A DNA stretch of 64,000 nt from Escherichia coli (GTDB lineage Bacteria > Pseudomonadota > Gammaproteobacteria > Enterobacterales > Enterobacteriaceae), in assembly GCF_041886205.1 (NCBI RefSeq), contig NZ_CP169029.1; one strand, written 5' to 3'. Of the stretch, positions 1 to 21,695 are shown piece by piece. Each line of letters opens with the position of its first letter. The stretch's first letter is position 1. The notes under the pieces were generated by a model. The model was given only the letters and a program-made list of their open reading frames with translations, was not told where the DNA came from and searched no databases. Made by a program: the position numbers and the translations under genes.

Positions 1-238
1 CATGTTCATGGCAATGATCAGGTAGCTATAAGTACGTTTGAAATGAACATGTTTGATTTCCGTCGTGATAATATAGGAAAAAGTATGCAATCCGGGTTAG
101 ATAAAAAAACTGCTCCTGCAGGAATCATAATGTAATAAATATTAGATATTTTTATATTAGAGGTGAGGAGATGGCGTCACCTCTAATATTTTCGCTGATT
201 GTATTTAGCATCAAATAATAAAGGTACAATTAATTTAA

Positions 239-424
239 GTGACTATCATGAAAAAATTAGTTCCGCCATATCAAGTAACCCCGGCACAAATCTATCGTTC
301 CGTTGCCAGTTCTACAGCCATTGAAACCGGAAAACCCGTGCAAGAAATTGAGCGACAGCTCAAACGTAACCGAACGCTGGCGAAGAACGTCGGCCTCGCC
401 AGCAAATCCAGAGATCCGATTTAA
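239..424 (+). CDS. Hypothetical small protein (61 aa), convergent with integrase
   Basis: ORF in six-frame track; no recognisable family; AT-rich context. Confidence 0.25.
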   Translation: MTIMKKLVPPYQVTPAQIYRSVASSTAIETGKPVQEIERQLKRNRTLAKNVGLASKSRDPI

Positions 425-428
425 GCCT

Positions 429-1736
429 CTATCTCTGCCCAAACAGGTTAACGACATTGTTTTCCTGCTGTTGCTGGTGGTTATTCACCCGAGACTCCCA
501 GATCTCGAGAGCCTTACGCTTTTCAACCAGGTAATCGTAACGATCGTAGTGTTTAGAACTCACATCCTGTAGAGCATGGTTCTGAATGCGGTCACGCAGG
601 TCTTTAGCAATACCCGCTTCGCCCATCAGGGTCTTACAGGTACGACGAATATCACGCGCAATAAAAGATGGGCTCAACGCAAAGTGTTGCCGGTAATAAA
701 TGATGGCTTGTGCAAAGCTGTCTGTGCGTAGATGCTGTTCCGGTTTAATACGCTGCGGGAAGATGTAAGGACTCTGACTATGATTCTCAGCTTTCAACTT
801 TTCGAGTATCTCAATGGCTGACTCAGTCAAAGGCACCAGATGATCCCTTTTATTTTTCGACACATCCGCCACTATCAATAACGTTTTTTCTTCCCAGTTA
901 ACGGCATCCCAACGGCTGGAAACCAGTTCATGAGGCCGCTGGCCACCCGTATAGACACACAAGTTAAGCAATTGGCTGATTAACGGGCCGACCTTTGGTG
1001 CTTTAGGGAAATCCCCCATCAGTTGCTGCAACTCATCCAGCTTCAGCCAGTTTGTCCCTGCCTTCTCCGCTGCAGATTGTTTGGGTATGACACTCACTGG
1101 GTTCATTTGAAGCCCAAACATCACGTTCTGCTGGTGGTTTGCCGGATCGTTGTCAGCCTTCAACCCATAATTGAATGCTGCCATCAGATAAGAGCGAACA
1201 CGATTTGCTTCAACTGATGCGCCACGTTTAATAATGGTGGCCAGAATTTGTTTGATATGAGCGGGGATAACGTCACGCGCTTTCGTCGCTTTAGGTATAA
1301 ATGGATAGGTTTCTTTTTCCAGCCGGTACAAAACCTGTTGCCAGGTGCGTTTACCGTCTTCACGCATTTTGGTGGTGTAACCCAAAATGAGTTGCTCAAT
1401 GCTGCCTTTGAGCTGGTCTTCACGTTGTTGTTGTTCGGCAGAGAAAAGCTGCTCTGCGATTTCAGCTTTGGGGTCTTTCCCTTCTTTAAGAAGACCCGCA
1501 TGTTCTTTACATTGCTGTCTTGCCTGCGCGAGTGACAACTCTGGGAAACGGCCAAGCAGAATGAATTGCCGTTTTCCTTGCCAAAAATAACGATAGTAAA
1601 ATACTCGCTGACCCGATGGCTCAACTTTCACCCCTAATCGCCCTGCCCCACGCTCACCACTTTTATCCCATTCATAATAAGCAGTAGTCTTCGGCTTCAA
1701 GCCACTAATCATTGAGACAGTTAAATTATCAGCCAT
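429..1736 (-). CDS. int: Tyrosine recombinase / phage integrase, P4 family (start probably Met at 1736; longest ORF extends to 1838)
   Basis: N-terminal arm-binding-like segment (FYYRYFWQGKRQFILLGRFPELSLAQARQQ) and C-terminal catalytic region ending HYDRYDY with conserved R/H/R/Y pattern. Confidence 0.8.
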   Translation of the reverse strand: MADNLTVSMISGLKPKTTAYYEWDKSGERGAGRLGVKVEPSGQRVFYYRYFWQGKRQFILLGRFPELSLAQARQQCKEHAGLLKEGKDPKAEIAEQLFSAEQQQREDQLKGSIEQLILGYTTKMREDGKRTWQQVLYRLEKETYPFIPKATKARDVIPAHIKQILATIIKRGASVEANRVRSYLMAAFNYGLKADNDPANHQQNVMFGLQMNPVSVIPKQSAAEKAGTNWLKLDELQQLMGDFPKAPKVGPLISQLLNLCVYTGGQRPHELVSSRWDAVNWEEKTLLIVADVSKNKRDHLVPLTESAIEILEKLKAENHSQSPYIFPQRIKPEQHLRTDSFAQAIIYYRQHFALSPSFIARDIRRTCKTLMGEAGIAKDLRDRIQNHALQDVSSKHYDRYDYLVEKRKALEIWESRVNNHQQQQENNVVNLFGQR

Positions 1737-1930
1737 AGTATTTTTCAGTCCTTTGTTCGTTACGTCACCCAGTCTGATTCTGGGTGACGTAGTGGGTGAC
1801 GTAAGGATGATACTGAAGGTAAAAACGCAGAACAACATGAAACAACAACCAGCAAATAACCTACTGTTATTTATTAAATTTAATCTAACGTGAAAAAAGA
1901 TGCAAAATCATGAAACATGGATTTCATATG

Positions 1931-1976
1931 ACTCATAATCGCTTGGTCGCTGGTTCAAGTCCAGCAGGGGCCACCA
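1931..1976 (+). other. Partial tRNA-Ile(CAU) gene, 3' half only (anticodon loop to CCA); att-site-like remnant
   Basis: ACTCATAATCGCTTGGTCGCTGGTTCAAGTCCAGCAGGGGCCACCA matches the ileX/ileY-type tRNA from the anticodon loop onward; upstream bases do not match the 5' half. Confidence 0.65.
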
Positions 1977-2731: not shown

Positions 2732-4081
2732 ATGTTAGTTAGTAAAAGCAACGAATTTAACACTAGCGCAGTTTTGGCTAGCAGGAATTATAATGAAAAC
2801 AATTCTTCCAACCCCATGGGGCTACTAGCTTATAGTATTTTAAATTTAATTTGTAAGGAAGCTGCCTCAGGGACGTACAACGGTGCTATTGAAATTTTAC
2901 AAAAAATGATGTCTGAATGTAAATATCAAGAAGGCAACGCCTTTGTCATTATGGGATCTGGAGAACAATTAAAACGTATTAAATATGATGTTGATGAAAA
3001 TAACTTAAAAGTATTCAACGTACACTTTAATAATAATGAAGAGTTAGTTACTGATGGTGAGCCTGACGTAGTATGTTTAAGCAAGCAGGAGTGGGAAAAT
3101 CTTCTCATTAAATTAAAACCGGAGATTAAAGAAAATGTGTTTTCTGAAAATAACAAATCATCGAGAGAAAATAATGTTGATCAGTATGTTCAATCCGCTA
3201 AAAGAAATGAACAGGCCCTTTTCGATAATATAATAAAAAGTGATTTTCATGTTGCTTCACTTCAGCCAGGTAGTACGCGTAGTGTTATTTCAGAAACGCC
3301 ACGAAATGTCTGTATGGAACCACGTAATTCCTATGAAACCAAAATAGATGAGATTTCATCTTTGTCAGAGTCAAAGGAACACTCCATAGATATTCAAGAA
3401 AAAACAGATGCGTTTGTGAATGAGTTCAAGGGGATATTATTTGATAAAAATGGAACGTCTTCAGAGTTTCTACTTAATTTTTATGAATGTTGCTATGAGT
3501 TTTTACCAAGAGCGCAGCCTCAGGATAAAATCGATAGCTATAATTCAGCACTGCAAGCTTTTTCCATCTTTTGTTCATCTACGTTGACACATAATAATAT
3601 AGGCTTTGATTTCAAATTATTTCCAGAAGTCAAGCTGTCTAGAGAACATCTTGAAACGGTATTCAAATACAAAAATGGCGATGATGTCCGGGAGATAGCC
3701 AAAATTAACATTACTCTCCAAAAAGAAGAGGGTGGTTTATATAATTTACGTGGATTAGATTTTAAGGGATGCTTCTTTTCTGGACAGAACTTCAGTAACT
3801 ATGATATTCAATATGTGAACTGGGGAACGTCATTGTTTGATCTTGATACTCCATGTATTTTTAATGCGCCTGCTTACAACAAGAGTAATGAAAAATCATT
3901 AGAACGCGTCAGCGAAAACGGTTTAAGTGGAGTCTTGTCTGATCGTAATAAAAAAATAAAACTCATCACGGGCGTGGCACCATTCGATGATATTTTATTT
4001 ATGGATGACGACTTTGATGATAGTTCCTCTGAGGATGATCCCGTTGAGAATAGTCCTGTTGTGACTAGTCCCCTTGTATAA
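2732..4081 (+). CDS. AT-rich hypothetical protein, ypjC-like, with pentapeptide-repeat-like segment near C-terminus
   Basis: 449-aa ORF, low GC, Asn/Ser-rich; segment NLRGLDFKGCFFSGQNFSNYDIQYVNW resembles pentapeptide repeats; position matches ypjC of K-12. Confidence 0.55.
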   Translation: MLVSKSNEFNTSAVLASRNYNENNSSNPMGLLAYSILNLICKEAASGTYNGAIEILQKMMSECKYQEGNAFVIMGSGEQLKRIKYDVDENNLKVFNVHFNNNEELVTDGEPDVVCLSKQEWENLLIKLKPEIKENVFSENNKSSRENNVDQYVQSAKRNEQALFDNIIKSDFHVASLQPGSTRSVISETPRNVCMEPRNSYETKIDEISSLSESKEHSIDIQEKTDAFVNEFKGILFDKNGTSSEFLLNFYECCYEFLPRAQPQDKIDSYNSALQAFSIFCSSTLTHNNIGFDFKLFPEVKLSREHLETVFKYKNGDDVREIAKINITLQKEEGGLYNLRGLDFKGCFFSGQNFSNYDIQYVNWGTSLFDLDTPCIFNAPAYNKSNEKSLERVSENGLSGVLSDRNKKIKLITGVAPFDDILFMDDDFDDSSSEDDPVENSPVVTSPLV

Positions 4082-4389
4082 AGTTCTAAAAGCAGTTTTC
4101 AATGATAAATAAATGGCTATTTTTACGAAGAGATAATAACGTAGATTGAAACAATATGTATTATTGATTGAGTAAACGGGATTATTATTCACACTACATC
4201 CATTTTAGTGTCACTACCAAAGAAAAAGGGGCTACGTTTTCATGTAACCCCTTGATTTATTTGGTGGGCTGGCAGTGACTGAATTGGTGCTGTAATTGGT
4301 TGAAATATTTCATCTAATGTCTGGTTTAACTTTCCTTAGCTGCCTGAAAGTTTTTTGATCTCACCCAGCAATAACAGCGTTACGGTGCA

Positions 4390-4680: not shown

Positions 4681-5007
4681 TTTATGTGAGCAGAAGATAT
4701 TCATCAGAAACGATTATGTAAATCATTTTATTTTGCCGACTGCCTGATTGTCGAAAGAAAAGAATACGCCCGGGTTTCCTGAATAGATTGACTTTTTTAT
4801 CCAACCACACTTCAGCGCACTGCGTTTAAAAAATGCCTCATTCTTATGCGGAATATCATCATTTCATCATGATGTCTTTGATGAGCGGTGAACACAATAC
4901 ACTTGCGCTGTCTCTTCAGGATGAATCCCCTGGTCTGGTGCCTGTGGGCTGATGTTGCAGCAAAGCTAAGGTCGCTTAAACGCTACTCAGTATTCACTTT
5001 TCAGAGG

Positions 5008-8000
5008 ATGAAATTTATGAACAGGACCAGTCCCTATTATTTTCGCCGCTCAGTACTTTCCTTATTGATATCTGCCCTGATATATGCTCCGCCCGGGATG
5101 GCGGCCTTTACTACTAATGTTATTGGTGTGGTAAATGATGAGACTGTAGATGGCAACCAACGAGTAGATGAACGAGGTACAACAAATAACACTCATATTA
5201 TCAACCATGGCCAGCAGAGTGTTTATGGCGGAGTATCTAATGGAAGTATTATTGAATCGGGTGGATATCAAGATGTTGGAAGGAATAACAATTATATGGG
5301 GCAGTCTAATAATACAACCATTAACGGAGGAAGACAGACAATTCATGACGGGGGCATTTCCACCGGTACGATAATCGACAGTGGCAATCAGGACGTTTAT
5401 ACAGGTGGTATCAGCAATGGAACGACAATTAAGGGTGGTAATTCACACATAAGTGGGGGGACTGCGAATGGAACAATCATTGATGGTGGCAGCCAACGAG
5501 TAACAACGCAGGGGCATGTTGACAGTACAACGATAAATAAGTCTGGCTCTCAGGACATCACGCAAGGAAGTCTGGCGACGAACACAATCATAAATGGTGG
5601 ACGACAGTATGTTGAACAGAGCACAGTAGGAACAACCACCATTAAAAATGGCGGTGAGCAAAGAGTATATGAAAGCCATGCGCTGGACACGACGATTGAA
5701 GGTGGAACTCAGTCTCTGAATAATAAGTCAACGGCAAAAAATACTCAGATCTATTCTGGTGGTACGCAAATTGTTGATAACACCAGCACCTCGGATGTTA
5801 TTGAAGTTTATTCCGGTGGCGTGCTTGATGTTAGTGGTGGTACGGCAACAAATGTTACCCAGCACGATGGTGCAATTTTAAAAACAAACACTAACGGTAC
5901 GACGGTGAACGGTACGAATAGTGAAGGTGCATTCTCCATCCACAATCACGTGGCAGACAATGTGTTGCTGGAAAACGGTGGTCATTTAGACATAAACGCA
6001 TATGGTTCGGCAAACAAGACTATTATCAAAGATAAAGGAACAATGTCAGTTTTAACCAATGCTAAAGCTGATGCGACCCGAATAGATAACGGCGGGGTAA
6101 TGGATGTTGCCGGAAACGCGACCAATACCATAATTAATGGTGGCACACAGAATATTAATAATTATGGCATAGCCACGGGAACCAATATCAACAGCGGAAC
6201 GCAAAATATCAAGAGCGGCGGGAAAGCTGACACGACAATTATATCCTCCGGGAGCCGGCAGGTTGTTGAGAAAGATGGTACGGCAACTGGCAGCAATATT
6301 AGCGCCGGAGGCTCGCTGATTGTCTATACCGGCGGTATTGCACATGGGGTTAACCAGGAGACGGGCAGTGCTTTAGTTGCCAACACGGGTGCAGGGACTG
6401 ATATCGAAGGATACAACAAGCTCTCTCACTTCACTATTACCGGAGGGGAGGCTAATTATGTTGTGCTGGAAAATACCGGCGAACTGACGGTAGTGGCTAA
6501 AACCTCGGCGAAAAATACTACCATTGATACTGGCGGTAAGCTGATTGTCCAGAAGGAGGCTAAAACAGATAGCACCAGACTTAATAATGGCGGCGTTCTG
6601 GAGGTTCAGGACGGTGGTGAGGCTAAGCATGTTGAGCAACAATCCGGCGGCGCATTAATTGCTTCCACGACCTCCGGAACACTTATCGAAGGAACCAACA
6701 GTTATGGTGATGCTTTCTACATCAGGAATTCAGAAGCTAAAAATGTAGTGCTGGAAAACGCTGGCTCATTAACAGTCGTCACTGGTTCCCGGGCAGTTGA
6801 TACGATTATTAATGCCAATGGCAAAATGGATGTTTATGGAAAAGATGTTGGCACTGTACTTAATAGTGCTGGCACCCAAACAATATATGCCAGTGCCACT
6901 TCTGATAAAGCAAATATCAAAGGTGGCAAGCAAACGGTATATGGTTTAGCCACTGAAGCAAATATCGAAAGTGGTGAACAAATTGTTGATGGTGGGTCAA
7001 CAGAGAAAACACACATCAATGGTGGCACGCAAATCGTTCAGAATTATGGTAAGGCAATCAATACCGATATCGTCTCTGGCCTACAACAAATTATGGCAAA
7101 CGGGACAGCGGAAGGTTCCATTATTAATGGGGGTTCACAGGTAGTTAATGAGGGCGGTCTGGCTGAAAACTCGGTGCTTAATGACGGCGGCACACTCGAT
7201 GTGCGGGAGAAAGGCAGCGCAACGGGGATACAGCAGAGTAGCCAGGGCGCTTTGGTTGCAACCACCAGGGCGACGCGGGTCACAGGAACACGCGCGGATG
7301 GCGTCGCGTTCAGCATCGAGCAGGGTGCGGCGAACAATATCCTGCTGGCAAATGGCGGCGTGTTAACCGTGGAGTCAGACACCTCTTCTGACAAAACACA
7401 GGTCAATATGGGCGGACGGGAGATCGTCAAAACAAAAGCCACTGCGACAGGCACGACGCTCACCGGCGGTGAACAAATTGTCGAGGGTGTGGCGAATGAG
7501 ACAACAATTAACGACGGCGGAATACAAACAGTTTCAGCTAACGGAGAGGCAATAAAAACAAAGATCAATGAAGGCGGTACGCTGACAGTCAACGATAATG
7601 GCAAAGCGACAGATATCGTCCAGAACAGCGGTGCCGCTCTCCAGACGAGCACGGCTAACGGTATTGAAATCAGCGGTACTCACCAGTACGGTACTTTTTC
7701 CATTTCCGGCAATTTAGCGACCAATATGTTGCTGGAAAATGGCGGTAATTTATTGGTATTAGCAGGTACCGAAGCTCGCGACTCCACGGTTGGCAAGGGT
7801 GGGGCAATGCAAAACCTGGGTCAGGACTCCGCCACAAAGGTTAACTCTGGCGGGCAATATACCCTTGGGCGGTCAAAAGATGAGTTTCAGGCTCTGGCCC
7901 GGGCAGAAGATCTCCAGGTCGCTGGCGGTACGGCAATCGTCTACGCAGGTACGCTGGCGGATGCATCGGTCAGTGGCGCGACAGGAAGCCTGTCGTTAAT

Positions 8001-9597
8001 GACGCCACGGGATAATGTTACGCCAGTTAAACTCGAAGGGGCGGTCCGGATTACCGATAGCGCGACATTGACTCTGGGAAATGGCGTCGATACCACGCTT
8101 GCCGACCTGACGGCTGCCAGCCGGGGCAGTGTCTGGCTTAACAGCAATAATTCCTGTGCAGGTACCAGCAACTGCGAATATAGAGTAAACAGTTTGCTAC
8201 TCAACGACGGTGATGTTTATTTGTCAGCACAAACAGCAGCGCCTGCCACAACTAACGGTATCTACAATACGCTGACAACCAATGAACTTTCCGGTAGCGG
8301 TAATTTCTACCTGCATACCAACGTTGCAGGCTCCCGGGGCGATCAACTGGTCGTCAACAACAACGCCACTGGTAATTTTAAAATCTTTGTTCAGGATACC
8401 GGCGTCAGCCCACAGTCTGACGACGCGATGACGCTGGTGAAAACAGGGGGAGGGGATGCTTCGTTTACGCTGGGCAATACCGGCGGTTTCGTTGATCTTG
8501 GGACCTATGAGTATGTCCTGAAAAGTGACGGCAACAGCAACTGGAACCTGACCAATGATGTCAAACCCAACCCGGACCCCATCCCAAATCCAAAGCCAGA
8601 CCCAAAACCCGATCCAAAGCCAGACCCAAATCCAAAACCAGACCCTACTCCCGATCCAACGCCGACACCCGTTCCGGAGAAACGCATTACGCCTTCTACG
8701 GCAGCCGTACTCAATATGGCAGCAACATTACCGTTGGTATTTGATGCTGAGCTAAACAGTATTCGCGAGCGGTTGAACATAATGAAAGCGAGTCCACACA
8801 ACAATAATGTCTGGGGGGCGACGTATAACACCCGTAATAATGTCACCACCGATGCGGGTGCCGGGTTTGAGCAGACGCTGACCGGAATGACAGTGGGGAT
8901 CGACAGCCGTAATGATATTCCTGAAGGAATTACCACGCTAGGCGCTTTTATGGGCTATTCCCATTCACATATCGGTTTTGATCGCGGAGGACATGGCAGT
9001 GTGGGCAGTTATTCTCTGGGCGGCTATGCCAGTTGGGAACATGAAAGTGGTTTCTATCTGGACGGTGTCGTGAAGCTGAACCGTTTTAAAAGTAACGTAG
9101 CAGGTAAAATGAGCAGCGGTGGAGCCGCCAATGGCAGTTACCACAGCAACGGGCTGGGCGGTCACATTGAAACCGGGATGCGATTTACCGATGGTAACTG
9201 GAACCTGACGCCGTATGCATCGTTAACGGGGTTCACCGCTGATAACCCCGAATATCATTTATCCAATGGCATGGAATCGAAATCAGTCGATACCCGCAGT
9301 ATATATCGTGAACTGGGTGCAACGCTGAGTTACAACATGCGTCTGGGGAACGGTATGGAAGTTGAGCCGTGGCTGAAGGCGGCTGTGCGCAAAGAATTTG
9401 TCGATGATAACCGGGTGAAGGTGAATAATGACGGTAATTTCGTCAATGATTTGTCGGGCAGACGTGGAATATACCAGGCAGGTATTAAAGCCTCATTCAG
9501 TAGTACGTTAAGCGGGCATCTCGGGGTGGGGTATAGCCATGGTGCCGGTGTGGAATCACCGTGGAACGCGGTGGCTGGTGTGAACTGGTCGTTCTGA
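5008..9597 (+). CDS. ypjA: Large adhesin-like autotransporter (ypjA-like); start assigned to the signal-peptide Met, ORF opens at 4888
   Basis: Signal peptide (MKFMNRTSPYYFRRSVLSLLISALIYAPPGMAA), long passenger of about 19-residue Gly/Thr/Asn-rich repeats, Pro-Asp-Lys linker, C-terminal beta-barrel ending VNWSF. Confidence 0.85.
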   Translation: MKFMNRTSPYYFRRSVLSLLISALIYAPPGMAAFTTNVIGVVNDETVDGNQRVDERGTTNNTHIINHGQQSVYGGVSNGSIIESGGYQDVGRNNNYMGQSNNTTINGGRQTIHDGGISTGTIIDSGNQDVYTGGISNGTTIKGGNSHISGGTANGTIIDGGSQRVTTQGHVDSTTINKSGSQDITQGSLATNTIINGGRQYVEQSTVGTTTIKNGGEQRVYESHALDTTIEGGTQSLNNKSTAKNTQIYSGGTQIVDNTSTSDVIEVYSGGVLDVSGGTATNVTQHDGAILKTNTNGTTVNGTNSEGAFSIHNHVADNVLLENGGHLDINAYGSANKTIIKDKGTMSVLTNAKADATRIDNGGVMDVAGNATNTIINGGTQNINNYGIATGTNINSGTQNIKSGGKADTTIISSGSRQVVEKDGTATGSNISAGGSLIVYTGGIAHGVNQETGSALVANTGAGTDIEGYNKLSHFTITGGEANYVVLENTGELTVVAKTSAKNTTIDTGGKLIVQKEAKTDSTRLNNGGVLEVQDGGEAKHVEQQSGGALIASTTSGTLIEGTNSYGDAFYIRNSEAKNVVLENAGSLTVVTGSRAVDTIINANGKMDVYGKDVGTVLNSAGTQTIYASATSDKANIKGGKQTVYGLATEANIESGEQIVDGGSTEKTHINGGTQIVQNYGKAINTDIVSGLQQIMANGTAEGSIINGGSQVVNEGGLAENSVLNDGGTLDVREKGSATGIQQSSQGALVATTRATRVTGTRADGVAFSIEQGAANNILLANGGVLTVESDTSSDKTQVNMGGREIVKTKATATGTTLTGGEQIVEGVANETTINDGGIQTVSANGEAIKTKINEGGTLTVNDNGKATDIVQNSGAALQTSTANGIEISGTHQYGTFSISGNLATNMLLENGGNLLVLAGTEARDSTVGKGGAMQNLGQDSATKVNSGGQYTLGRSKDEFQALARAEDLQVAGGTAIVYAGTLADASVSGATGSLSLMTPRDNVTPVKLEGAVRITDSATLTLGNGVDTTLADLTAASRGSVWLNSNNSCAGTSNCEYRVNSLLLNDGDVYLSAQTAAPATTNGIYNTLTTNELSGSGNFYLHTNVAGSRGDQLVVNNNATGNFKIFVQDTGVSPQSDDAMTLVKTGGGDASFTLGNTGGFVDLGTYEYVLKSDGNSNWNLTNDVKPNPDPIPNPKPDPKPDPKPDPNPKPDPTPDPTPTPVPEKRITPSTAAVLNMAATLPLVFDAELNSIRERLNIMKASPHNNNVWGATYNTRNNVTTDAGAGFEQTLTGMTVGIDSRNDIPEGITTLGAFMGYSHSHIGFDRGGHGSVGSYSLGGYASWEHESGFYLDGVVKLNRFKSNVAGKMSSGGAANGSYHSNGLGGHIETGMRFTDGNWNLTPYASLTGFTADNPEYHLSNGMESKSVDTRSIYRELGATLSYNMRLGNGMEVEPWLKAAVRKEFVDDNRVKVNNDGNFVNDLSGRRGIYQAGIKASFSSTLSGHLGVGYSHGAGVESPWNAVAGVNWSF

Positions 9598-21332: not shown

Positions 21333-21695
21333 TGGTGGAGCTGGCGGGAGTTGAACCCGCGTCCGAAATTCCTACGTCCTCGGTACTACATGCTTAGTCA
21401 GTCTTTACATTCGCTTGCCAGCTGCGGACGGACACGCCACTAACAAACTAGCCTGATTAAGTTTTAACGCTTCAACCCCAGGCAGGGCTTCCACGCGATC
21501 TCTTTTGGGTTTGACCTCTCTTGATCCCCGTCCTAAGAGCGGAGGCTAGGGAGAGAGGGCTCTAAGCAGGTTATTAAGCTGCTAAAGCGTAGTTTTCGTC
21601 GTTTGCGACTATTTTTTGCGGCTTTTTACGAGGCCAACCGCCCCTCGGCATGCACCTTGGGTTTCGCAAATCCCGTCGAATCCAGAATCAGCCCC
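21333..21695 (-). ncRNA. ssrA: tmRNA (SsrA), 363 nt
   Basis: Reverse complement begins GGGGCTGATTCTGGATTCGACGGGATTTGCGAAACC and ends GGTTCAACTCCCGCCAGCTCCACCA; ANDENYALAA tag template region present. Confidence 0.95.

What the first reader, a model, noticed from the sequence alone, without database searches (positions are those of the whole stretch)
1762..1802. Perfect 11-bp palindrome plus a third half-site in the integrase leader
ACGTCACCCAG-tctgatt-CTGGGTGACGT is a perfect inverted repeat, followed 3 nt later by GGGTGACGT again. It lies between the probable int start (1736) and the tRNA-derived att remnant, a typical place for an operator (autoregulation of int) or recombination directionality factor sites.
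Basis: seen in the sequence. Interest (0 to 1): 0.35.

Follow-up and report, generated by a model that had tools for sequence, protein, structure and literature searches.

The report
Integrase arm-binding sites beside int
The palindrome plus extra half-site is three copies of an 11-base motif that most likely serves as docking ("arm-type") sites for the neighbouring island's integrase, laid out as in satellite phage P4; it is a real but ordinary part of a mobile element's attachment site.

Summary
TGGGTGACGTA occurs three times exactly: 1761-1771 (-), 1781-1791 (+) and 1793-1803 (+). The first two form a perfect 12-bp inverted repeat. The last two form a tandem pair with a 12-bp period.

The sites lie in the 193 bp between the true int start (ATG at 1736, minus strand) and a 47-nt tRNA-Ile2 3' fragment (1930-1976). 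That fragment is the att core at the right end of an island inserted in ileY.

Relatives show what the sites are:
- Integrases 75-97% identical keep the tandem pair at the same place.
- Integrases 58% identical, at the same tRNA, keep the same layout with a different motif (TGGGTCAGGTA). Their arm-binding domain also changes with the motif.
- In complete islands the motif occurs only in the two att arms. A second tandem pair sits about 58 bp beyond the intact tRNA.
- The phage P4 record annotates the same layout as "attP arm sequence repeats": an inverted copy, a tandem pair, the core, then another tandem pair.

I conclude these are arm-type integrase sites. They begin 3 nt downstream of a conserved putative int promoter (TTGTTC-17-TATCAT), so autorepression of int is likely, as reported for P4 and KplE1. 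The third, inverted site is dispensable in several lineages. This is a new member of a known kind, of low interest.

The parts
429..1736 (-). int: 435-aa P4-type (heterobivalent) tyrosine integrase with an N-terminal arm-binding domain
   Evidence: Pfam gives Arm-DNA-bind_3 (PF13356, E 2.9e-16), Phage_int_M and Phage_integrase. PDB arm-binding domains 3ju0 and 3jtz match residues 34-95. The start at 1736 agrees with 58-97% identical homologues.
1749..1753 (-). Putative Shine-Dalgarno sequence AAGGA for the int start at 1736
   Evidence: Read directly from the sequence. AAGGA is kept in relatives upstream of the ATG/TTG start. Inferred.
1761..1771 (-). Arm-type repeat 3 (int-proximal, inverted copy): TGGGTGACGTA on the minus strand
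   Evidence: Exact copy. It forms the 12-bp palindrome with repeat 2. It is present in L007, L022 and most CAGGTA-class relatives. It is absent in L017, L020, L021, L023-25, L001, L040, L041, L043 and L046. P4 has an inverted copy at the equivalent place.
1781..1791 (+). Arm-type repeat 2: TGGGTGACGTA, first member of the tandem pair
   Evidence: Conserved in all relatives examined.
1793..1803 (+). Arm-type repeat 1: TGGGTGACGTA, second member of the tandem pair (12-bp period), 3 nt from the putative -10
   Evidence: Conserved in all relatives. Same position relative to TATCAT as the P4 tandem arm repeats.
1807..1812 (-). Putative int promoter -10 hexamer TATCAT
   Evidence: Invariant in 9 relatives with 75-100% identical Int. 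P4 has TATCAT directly before its tandem arm repeats. The consensus scan did not call the promoter because its -35 matches only 3 of 6 positions. Inferred.
1830..1835 (-). Putative int promoter -35 hexamer TTGTTC, 17-nt spacer to the -10
   Evidence: The hexamer and the 17-nt spacing are conserved while the spacer sequence varies at many positions. Inferred.
1836..1844 (+). CATGAAACA, first copy of a second P-arm repeat (TGTTTCATG on the int strand), abutting the -35
   Evidence: Direct repeat D3. TGTTTCA/TGTTTCT recurs at about -108 and about -181 from the int start in relatives of both classes. The binding protein is unknown; an RDF or host factor is a candidate.
1909..1917 (+). CATGAAACA, second copy of the second P-arm repeat, 12 nt from the core
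1930..1976 (+). att core identity block: the 3' 47 nt of tRNA-Ile2 (CAU), from the anticodon loop to CCA. This is the attR copy at the right end of the island.
   Evidence: E. coli genomes with an empty site carry the intact tRNA-Ile here, and identity with the window starts at 1930. ARAGORN finds no intact tRNA here. The same fragment lies next to int in every relative.

Best explanation
The three TGGGTGACGTA copies are the P-arm 'arm-type' binding sites of the attachment site of a genomic island inserted in tRNA-Ile2 (ileY). Mechanism (inferred): the N-terminal arm-binding domain of the island's own integrase (429-1736, minus strand) binds these repeats, while its C-terminal domains bind the core in the tRNA anticodon-loop region about 127 bp away. 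With a matching tandem pair in the other arm (outside this window, next to the intact tRNA) and DNA bending in the AT-rich stretch between, this assembles the intasome for integration and excision. The sites start 3 nt downstream of the putative int promoter -10 and cover the predicted transcription start. Bound integrase would therefore also repress its own gene. The palindrome exists only because the int-proximal third copy is inverted; that copy is an optional extra site.
For: Shown here:
(1) The integrase carries an arm-binding domain: Pfam PF13356 and sequence matches to solved arm-binding domains 3ju0 and 3jtz.
(2) The position is a P arm, between int and the 47-nt tRNA-Ile2 core fragment, in the window and in every relative.
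(3) The motif lies on both arms. In E. coli ECL27977 the class motif GGGTCAGGTAA occurs exactly 5 times in 48 kb. Three copies are in the P arm beside int, and a tandem pair lies 58 bp after the intact tRNA.
(4) The window's own motif type forms the same tandem pair at the same distance from intact tRNA-Ile2 in Citrobacter, Silvania and Buttiauxella.
(5) One contig (IMGVR_UViG_3300009944_000158) carries both a 79%-identical Int with GAYGTA P-arm sites and a GAYGTA P' arm beside the intact tRNA.
(6) Covariation: nine integrases of 75-100% identity with GA(C/T)GTA sites share an invariant segment, WDKSGERGAGRLG(V/M)KVEPSGQRVFYYRY. All CAGGTA-site integrases have WSNS.QRG.GRLG.KVQ.SGSK.FYFRY.
(7) int plus the arms is the only conserved module. 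Neighbouring cargo differs completely between islands: IS1, type I R-M, BREX, pyocin, Fic, AlpA/YfjI.
(8) The P4 GenBank record annotates 12-nt 'attP arm sequence repeats' in the same layout: an inverted copy at the int start, a tandem pair at 12-bp period right after TATCAT, the core, then a tandem pair on the other arm.
(9) For autoregulation: -35 TTGTTC and -10 TATCAT are invariant with a fixed 17-nt but sequence-variable spacer. Overlap of an int promoter with arm sites, causing negative autoregulation, is documented for KplE1 IntS and stated there for P4 (PMC2951348).
Against: - No binding experiment exists for this motif.
- The island's own other arm lies outside the window, so the both-arms evidence comes from relatives.
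- The promoter is a weak consensus match (3/6 plus 5/6). The scanning tool did not call it, and the transcription start is unmapped.
- An RDF could in principle bind the same repeats.
- In L007 and L022, sites 2 and 3 changed in parallel and kept the palindrome. This hints at some selection, or gene conversion, on the inverted pair itself.
Confidence: 0.78

Rival explanations
1. The repeats are binding sites for a recombination directionality factor (an AlpA/Vis/Xis-type small wHTH protein) rather than for integrase. The RDF would bend the P arm to drive excision and repress int.
For: RDFs bind head-to-tail direct repeats close to int promoters in KplE1 (TorI), and an RDF represses int in P4 (Vis) (PMC2951348). 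AlpA-family genes are present in the related E. coli islands L004 and L005.
Against: The motif occurs as a tandem pair on both arms. Known RDF sites lie on one arm only (background knowledge of lambda Xis and of KplE1 TorI). The motif class tracks the integrase arm-binding domain. No AlpA-like gene was called within 10 kb of int in L017, L020 or L021, yet the sites persist. The homologous positions in P4 are annotated as att arm repeats.
Confidence: 0.1
2. The perfect palindrome (1761-1791) is a classical operator for a dimeric repressor, either element-encoded or from the host, that controls int transcription independently of recombination.
For: Perfect 12-bp arms with a 7-nt spacer lie just downstream of the putative promoter. 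In L007 and L022, sites 2 and 3 changed in parallel, preserving symmetry.
Against: The inverted copy is absent in many relatives that keep the promoter and the tandem pair: L017, L020, L021, L023-25, L001, L040, L041, L043, L046. The distance between the inverted half-sites varies from 12 to 14 nt between relatives, which does not suit a rigid dimer. The same half-site occurs as direct tandem pairs in both arms, and as 3-4 tandem copies in L033 and L042.
Confidence: 0.05
3. The palindrome acts at the RNA level. It forms a 12-bp stem-loop in the int 5' UTR that attenuates transcription, alters mRNA stability or modulates translation.
For: If transcription starts near 1800, the leader folds into a 12-bp hairpin (MFE -23.4 kcal/mol, z = -3.8). 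Stem-loops in an int 5' UTR attenuate int transcripts in ICEKp1 (PMC13023037). Parallel changes in L007 and L022 keep the stem.
Against: Any perfect palindrome folds this way. No U-run follows the stem (it is followed by AACGAACAAAGGA), so it is not an intrinsic terminator. The hairpin does not sequester the SD or the start codon. The inverted copy, and hence the hairpin, is missing in about half of the lineages. This can only be a secondary, lineage-specific function on top of the arm sites.
Confidence: 0.07

Closest known systems
attP arm sequence repeats of satellite phage P4 (NC_001609 annotation; P4 Int/Pint)
   Same: The layout is the same on the int strand. A TATCAT hexamer is followed by a tandem pair of 12-nt repeats and, 7-15 nt further on, an inverted third copy next to the int start. 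The core in a tRNA 3' end lies about 112-127 bp upstream, and a second tandem pair at 12-bp period lies about 53-58 bp beyond the core. Both integrases have the Arm-DNA-bind_3 N-terminal domain (product name). Int-mediated repression of Pint in P4 is stated in PMC2951348.
   Different: The integrases are only 21% identical. The motif differs (TGGGGGCAT in P4, TGGGTGACGTA here). The target tRNA differs (leuX for P4, from background knowledge, against tRNA-Ile2 here), and the core identity block is 20 bp in P4 against 47 nt here. P4's inverted copy overlaps the annotated int start, whereas here it lies 25 nt upstream. The element here is a genomic island with variable cargo, not a P4 satellite.
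KplE1 (CPS-53) prophage intS promoter/attL module (IntS arm-type sites, TorI sites)
   Same: The integrase promoter is embedded in the att recombination region, so Int arm-type sites overlap the -10/+1 region and give negative autoregulation (PMC2951348).
   Different: In KplE1, int sits next to the intact tRNA (argW) in attL, and separate TorI (RDF) sites have been mapped. Here int sits next to the tRNA fragment at the far end of the island, divergent from it. No RDF sites have been identified and nothing has been tested experimentally.
Lambda attP arm-type sites (P1, P2, P'1-P'3)
   Same: Five or so short repeats, distinct from the core, lie on both arms and are bound by a separate N-terminal domain of a heterobivalent integrase. 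An IHF-type bend lies between arm and core. An IHF consensus site sits at a conserved P-arm position in the CAGGTA-class relatives.
   Different: Lambda int is transcribed towards attP from distant promoters, so its arm sites do not overlap the int promoter. The arm-binding domain belongs to a different Pfam family, and the number and orientation of sites differ.

Membership tests
Arm-type integrase binding sites of a heterobivalent (P4-type) tyrosine recombinase att site | The adjacent integrase has a dedicated N-terminal arm-binding domain | tested here: met
   PF13356 Arm-DNA-bind_3, E 2.9e-16. Residues 34-95 match the solved arm-binding domains 3ju0 and 3jtz.
Arm-type integrase binding sites of a heterobivalent (P4-type) tyrosine recombinase att site | A short repeated motif, different from the core, lies in the arm between int and the core | tested here: met
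   Three exact copies at 1761-1803. The core fragment is at 1930-1976 and the motif is absent from the core.
Arm-type integrase binding sites of a heterobivalent (P4-type) tyrosine recombinase att site | The same motif is present on the other arm (P') of the same element | tested here: met
   Not testable for this island, because its left end is outside the window. Met in relatives: ECL27977 has all 5 exact copies in the arms, 3 in P and 2 in P'. Contig IMGVR_UViG_3300009944_000158 carries a 79% Int with a GAYGTA P arm and a GAYGTA P' arm beside the intact tRNA. GACGTA P' arms are also found in Citrobacter, Silvania and Buttiauxella.
Arm-type integrase binding sites of a heterobivalent (P4-type) tyrosine recombinase att site | Site sequence co-varies with the integrase arm-binding domain | tested here: met
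   There are two motif classes (GA[C/T]GTA and CAGGTA). Each goes with its own invariant arm-binding-domain segment, across 9 and 14 integrases respectively.
Arm-type integrase binding sites of a heterobivalent (P4-type) tyrosine recombinase att site | Direct binding of the Int N-terminal domain to the repeats | not testable with these tools
   Requires EMSA or footprinting.
P4-like attP architecture | Tandem pair at 12-bp period plus an inverted copy on the int side, and a tandem pair on the far side of a tRNA-3'-end core | tested here: met
   P4 record features 3915-3926(+), 3942-3953(-), 3954-3965(-), core 4078-4097, 4151-4162(-) and 4163-4174(-). These correspond to window sites 1761-1771(-), 1781-1791(+) and 1793-1803(+), the core at 1930-1976, and the P' pairs seen in relatives.
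Self-regulated integrase promoter overlapping the att region (KplE1 IntS / P4 Pint paradigm) | The int promoter lies inside the att arm and overlaps Int binding sites | tested here: inconclusive
   A conserved TTGTTC-17-TATCAT lies 3 nt upstream of site 1, with invariant hexamers and a variable spacer. It falls below the consensus-scan threshold, and no transcription start data exist.
Self-regulated integrase promoter overlapping the att region (KplE1 IntS / P4 Pint paradigm) | Int represses its own promoter | not testable with these tools
   Needs a Pint reporter fusion with and without Int in trans.
RDF (Xis/Vis/AlpA/TorI) binding sites | Sites confined to one arm of att | tested here: not met
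   Tandem pairs of the motif lie on both arms.
Palindromic operator of a dimeric repressor | The inverted repeat, with fixed half-site spacing, is conserved among relatives | tested here: not met
   The inverted copy is absent in L017, L020, L021, L023-25, L001, L040, L041, L043 and L046. The spacing varies from 12 to 14 nt.
Intrinsic terminator / attenuator hairpin | A GC-rich stem followed by a U-run | tested here: not met
   The stem is followed by AACGAACAAAGGA. No terminator was called in 1600-2000.

The most novel reading that the evidence does not exclude
Two integrase lineages (58% identical) use the same 47-nt tRNA-Ile2 core but have diverged in arm-site sequence (TGGGTGACGTA against TGGGTCAGGTA) together with their arm-binding domains. 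They might therefore form mutually orthogonal recombination modules. Different islands could then compete for, or stack in tandem at, the same attB without excising each other. Tandem junctions are seen in L006 and L194. Within this reading, the optional inverted third site and leader hairpin could be a lineage-specific extra layer of int control.
Probability: 0.3. Interest if true: 0.4.

Novelty: new member of a known kind. Interest (0 to 1): 0.17.

Why it matters
The result defines the recombination module (int, putative Pint, arm sites and core) of a family of tRNA-Ile2 islands. These islands carry varied defence and virulence cargo in Enterobacterales.

It has three practical uses:
- It gives a rule for delimiting such islands: a tandem 12-bp-period pair about 58 bp after the tRNA, and the same motif beside int.
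- It corrects over-long integrase gene calls.
- It offers a natural pair of arm-site and arm-binding-domain specificities for studying, or engineering, integrase specificity.

It does not reveal a new mechanism.

Tried and rejected
- Coding-region explanation (start at 1838): rejected. Homologues start at M/L-ADNLT, some with TTG. The 'extension' peptides resemble each other only where the promoter and arm DNA is conserved, and the ATG at 1838 lies upstream of the putative -35.
- Megablast of window 1-1929 against 5,426 complete E. coli genomes found nothing. The source island's other end could therefore not be retrieved there. blastn 'distant' found only the 58% class.
- The genome contigs pattern scan found P' arms but no P arm with the exact pattern. 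Hits in Bradyrhizobium, Tritonibacter and a Porphyromonadaceae MAG lack the tRNA core and are unrelated or chance matches.
Only L194 was useful.
- Comparing candidate RDFs between motif classes was uninformative. The 76-aa ORF near int in L020 is not AlpA-like and has no similarity to the AlpA-family protein of L005.
- The consensus promoter scan found no minus-strand promoter. The promoter proposal rests on conservation only.
- The P4 Pint paper (PubMed 16847139) is not in the held library. Its content is cited only through PMC2951348.
- The tandem-island idea for L022 was rejected: chromosomal flank, not another island's arm, lies beyond its core.

Full report
**1. Observation**

The sequence at 1761-1803 reads TACGTCACCCAG tctgatt CTGGGTGACGTA g TGGGTGACGTA.
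- The repeat finder reports a 100% complementary inverted repeat with 12-nt arms (1761-1772 and 1780-1791) and a 7-nt spacer.
- It also reports an exact 11-nt direct repeat (1781-1791 and 1793-1803) with a spacing of 12.
- The unit TGGGTGACGTA occurs exactly three times in the 64-kb window, all in this cluster.
- At <=1 mismatch there are 6 matches against 0.74 +/- 0.80 expected, and 0 of 100 shuffles reached 6.

It is better described as three copies of one motif: one inverted copy and two in tandem.

**2. Context**

The integrase:
- The minus-strand ORF 429-1838 is a tyrosine integrase with an N-terminal Arm-DNA-bind_3 domain, a Phage_int_M domain and a catalytic domain.
- Residues 34-95 match the solved arm-binding domains 3ju0 and 3jtz.
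- Its real start is the ATG at 1736 (MADNLT...). Homologues that are 58% identical are annotated from the same position. Homologues 75-81% identical begin with TTG at the same codon.
- The 34-codon 'extension' to 1838 is similar between relatives only where the underlying DNA is conserved.

The att core:
- Positions 1930-1976 are the 3' 47 nt of tRNA-Ile2 (anticodon CAU), running from the anticodon loop to CCA.
- E. coli genomes with an empty site have the intact tRNA-Ile at this place, and their identity with the window begins at 1930.
- ARAGORN finds no intact tRNA here.

The island:
- Window 1-1929 has no megablast match in 5,426 complete E. coli genomes, whereas 1930 onward is 99-100% E. 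coli.
- The window therefore starts inside an island that is inserted in ileY and extends to the left.
- The finding lies in the 193-bp arm between int and the core copy at the island's right end.

**3. Relatives**

The protein search gave a graded series of integrases at 97, 87, 81, 79, 78, 75, 73 and about 58% identity. I read the int-upstream DNA of 25 loci.

The invariant layout on the int strand is:

core fragment - about 70 nt of AT-rich DNA - [-35] - 17 nt - [-10] - 3 nt - site 1 - site 2 - (7-9 nt - inverted site 3) - SD - start

| Class | Int identity to window | -35 / -10 | Sites 1 and 2 | Inverted site 3 |
|---|---|---|---|---|
| GA(C/T)GTA | 75-100% | TTGTTC / TATCAT | TTAC(G/A)TCACC(CA/TG) | Present only in the window, L007 and L022 |
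| CAGGTA | 58%; E. coli LHM10-1, ECL27977 and many IMG/VR contigs, also at tRNA-Ile2 | TTGGTT / TAC(T/G)AT | TTACCTGACCCA TTACCTGACCCA (three or four tandem copies in L033 and L042) | Present in most; absent in L001, L040, L041, L043 and L046 |

The tandem pair is the constant element and the palindrome is not.

**4. Both arms**

- In the complete island of E. coli ECL27977, exact GGGTCAGGTAA occurs five times in 48 kb. Three copies are beside int, and a tandem pair lies 58 bp after the intact tRNA-Ile at the other end.
- The window's own motif forms the same tandem pair, at the same distance from an intact tRNA-Ile2 and behind the same tRNA terminator hairpin, in Citrobacter sp. R56, Silvania hatchlandensis and Buttiauxella massiliensis. 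It also does so in IMG/VR contigs L006, L194 and L222-L224.
- One 30-kb contig (IMGVR_UViG_3300009944_000158) carries both ends of one element. One end has a 79%-identical Int with P-arm sites CTGGGTGATGTAG CAGGTGACGTAA (L025). The other, about 20 kb away, has the intact tRNA followed by CAGGTGATGTAG TGGGTGATGTAAG ... TGGGTGACGCAAG (L225).

**5. Covariation and modularity**

- All nine GA(C/T)GTA-class integrases share WDKSGERGAGRLG(V/M)KVEPSGQRVFYYRY in the arm-binding domain, despite as little as 75% overall identity.
- All CAGGTA-class integrases have WSNS.QRG.GRLG.KVQ.SGSK.FYFRY.
- The genes beyond int differ completely between islands: IS1; type I R-M; BREX; pyocin; Fic; AlpA/YfjI/CbtA.
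- The sites therefore travel with int, not with any other gene.

**6. Comparison with P4**

The P4 record (NC_001609) annotates 12-nt 'attP arm sequence repeats':
- 3915-3926 (+), at the int start;
- 3942-3953 (-) and 3954-3965 (-);
- the core at 4078-4097;
- 4151-4162 (-) and 4163-4174 (-).

On the int strand P4 reads TATCAT TGGGGGCATAAT TGGGGGCATCTT -15 nt- ATGTGCCCCCAA. This is the same arrangement, including a TATCAT hexamer directly upstream of the tandem pair. The two integrases are only 21% identical. The window feature is therefore the positional equivalent of the P4 arm repeats in a distant member of the P4-type integrase group.

**7. Mechanism**

Shown here: the anatomy, the distribution on both arms, the covariation, and the equivalence to the annotated P4 arm repeats.

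Inferred:
- The Int N-terminal domain binds the repeats and bridges them to the core to build the intasome.
- An IHF-type bend probably helps. A perfect IHF consensus sits at a conserved position (-136 from the int start) in the CAGGTA class. The window has only a two-mismatch version at the equivalent place (and my reading of the sequence).
- Sites 1-3 cover +1 to about +45 of the putative Pint, so bound Int should repress int. The promoter hexamers are invariant and the 17-nt spacer varies in sequence. The tool did not call this promoter because its -35 matches only 3 of 6 positions.
- This matches what Panis et al. showed for KplE1 IntS and report for P4 (PMC2951348).

**8. Rivals**

- RDF sites: disfavoured by the presence of the motif on both arms and by covariation with Int.
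- Dimeric-repressor operator: disfavoured because the inverted copy is often absent and its spacing varies from 12 to 14 nt.
- Leader RNA hairpin: the stem is stable (-23.4 kcal/mol), and int 5'-UTR stem-loops attenuate int in ICEKp1 (PMC13023037). However, there is no U-run, the SD is not sequestered, and the hairpin is missing in about half of the lineages. It can at most be a secondary function.
- One unexplained detail remains. In L007 and L022, sites 2 and 3 changed in parallel and kept the symmetry. This could reflect gene conversion within the palindrome or weak selection on the hairpin.

**9. Verdict**

This is a real, conserved protein-binding cluster. It is most likely the P-arm arm-type integrase sites of a P4-type att site, doubling as the int autoregulatory region. 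It is a new member of a known kind, and interest is low.

Noticed in passing
window 1836-1844 and 1909-1917: A second P-arm direct repeat, CATGAAACA (TGTTTCATG on the int strand). One copy abuts the putative -35 and the other lies 12 nt from the core. TGTTTCA/TGTTTCT recurs at about the same two positions in relatives of both motif classes. These are candidate sites for an RDF or another accessory protein.
   Followed up: partly
window ~1856-1868; L002, L026, L027 and L039 at -136 from the int start: A perfect IHF consensus (AATCAATCNGTTA) sits at a fixed P-arm position in the CAGGTA-class relatives. GAYGTA-class relatives have 1-mismatch versions. The window has only a 2-mismatch version (TAACAGTAGGTTA) at the equivalent place.
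   Followed up: partly
window 1928-1936: ATGACTCAT, a 4+1+4 palindrome, is created at the junction of island DNA and the tRNA anticodon loop. It is conserved in all P arms read. It is a candidate for core-type Int half-sites flanking the crossover.
   Followed up: no
window 429-1838; proteins P0004-P0007: Gene callers extend this integrase family by 27-38 codons at the N terminus (462-473 aa entries, and the 469-aa ORF here). The conserved promoter and arm-site DNA happens to be open in frame, but the true start is M/L-ADNLT.
   Followed up: yes
window 1-1929: This island end is absent from all 5,426 complete E. coli genomes at megablast level, although the flank from 1930 is 99-100% E. coli. 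The nearest integrase (97%) is on metagenome contigs next to a bcs cellulose operon, with IS1 inserted about 245 bp after int. Window 186-430 is 98% identical to that DNA, and the similarity stops at window 186.
   Followed up: partly
L033 and L042 (IMG/VR), int-upstream region: The number of tandem arm repeats varies: three copies in L033 and four in L042, always at a 12-bp period. This suggests expansion by slippage.
   Followed up: no
L006 4500-4620 and L194 8100-8290: In these contigs the tRNA-Ile2 core preceding a GACGTA-type P' arm is itself preceded by non-tRNA DNA. In L006 that DNA carries other tandem repeats (AAAGTGTCGCA x2, TTGCCCTATA x2), and a 345-aa ORF reads towards the core. 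This looks like two different elements stacked in tandem at one att site.
   Followed up: no
L044/L045 (48% Int), int-upstream region: A more distant integrase of the family has a different repeat (CTAACGACA/ACGACACTAA) in the same place upstream of int, and again about 200 bp further upstream. It has no tRNA-Ile core.
   Followed up: no
window 2732-4081, 4888-9597, 21333-21695: Chromosomal neighbours are a YpjCB-family protein gene, a 1,569-aa YpjA/EhaD-type autotransporter gene and, further on, the tmRNA gene on the minus strand. This is the ileY-ypjA-ssrA region of E. coli.
   Followed up: no
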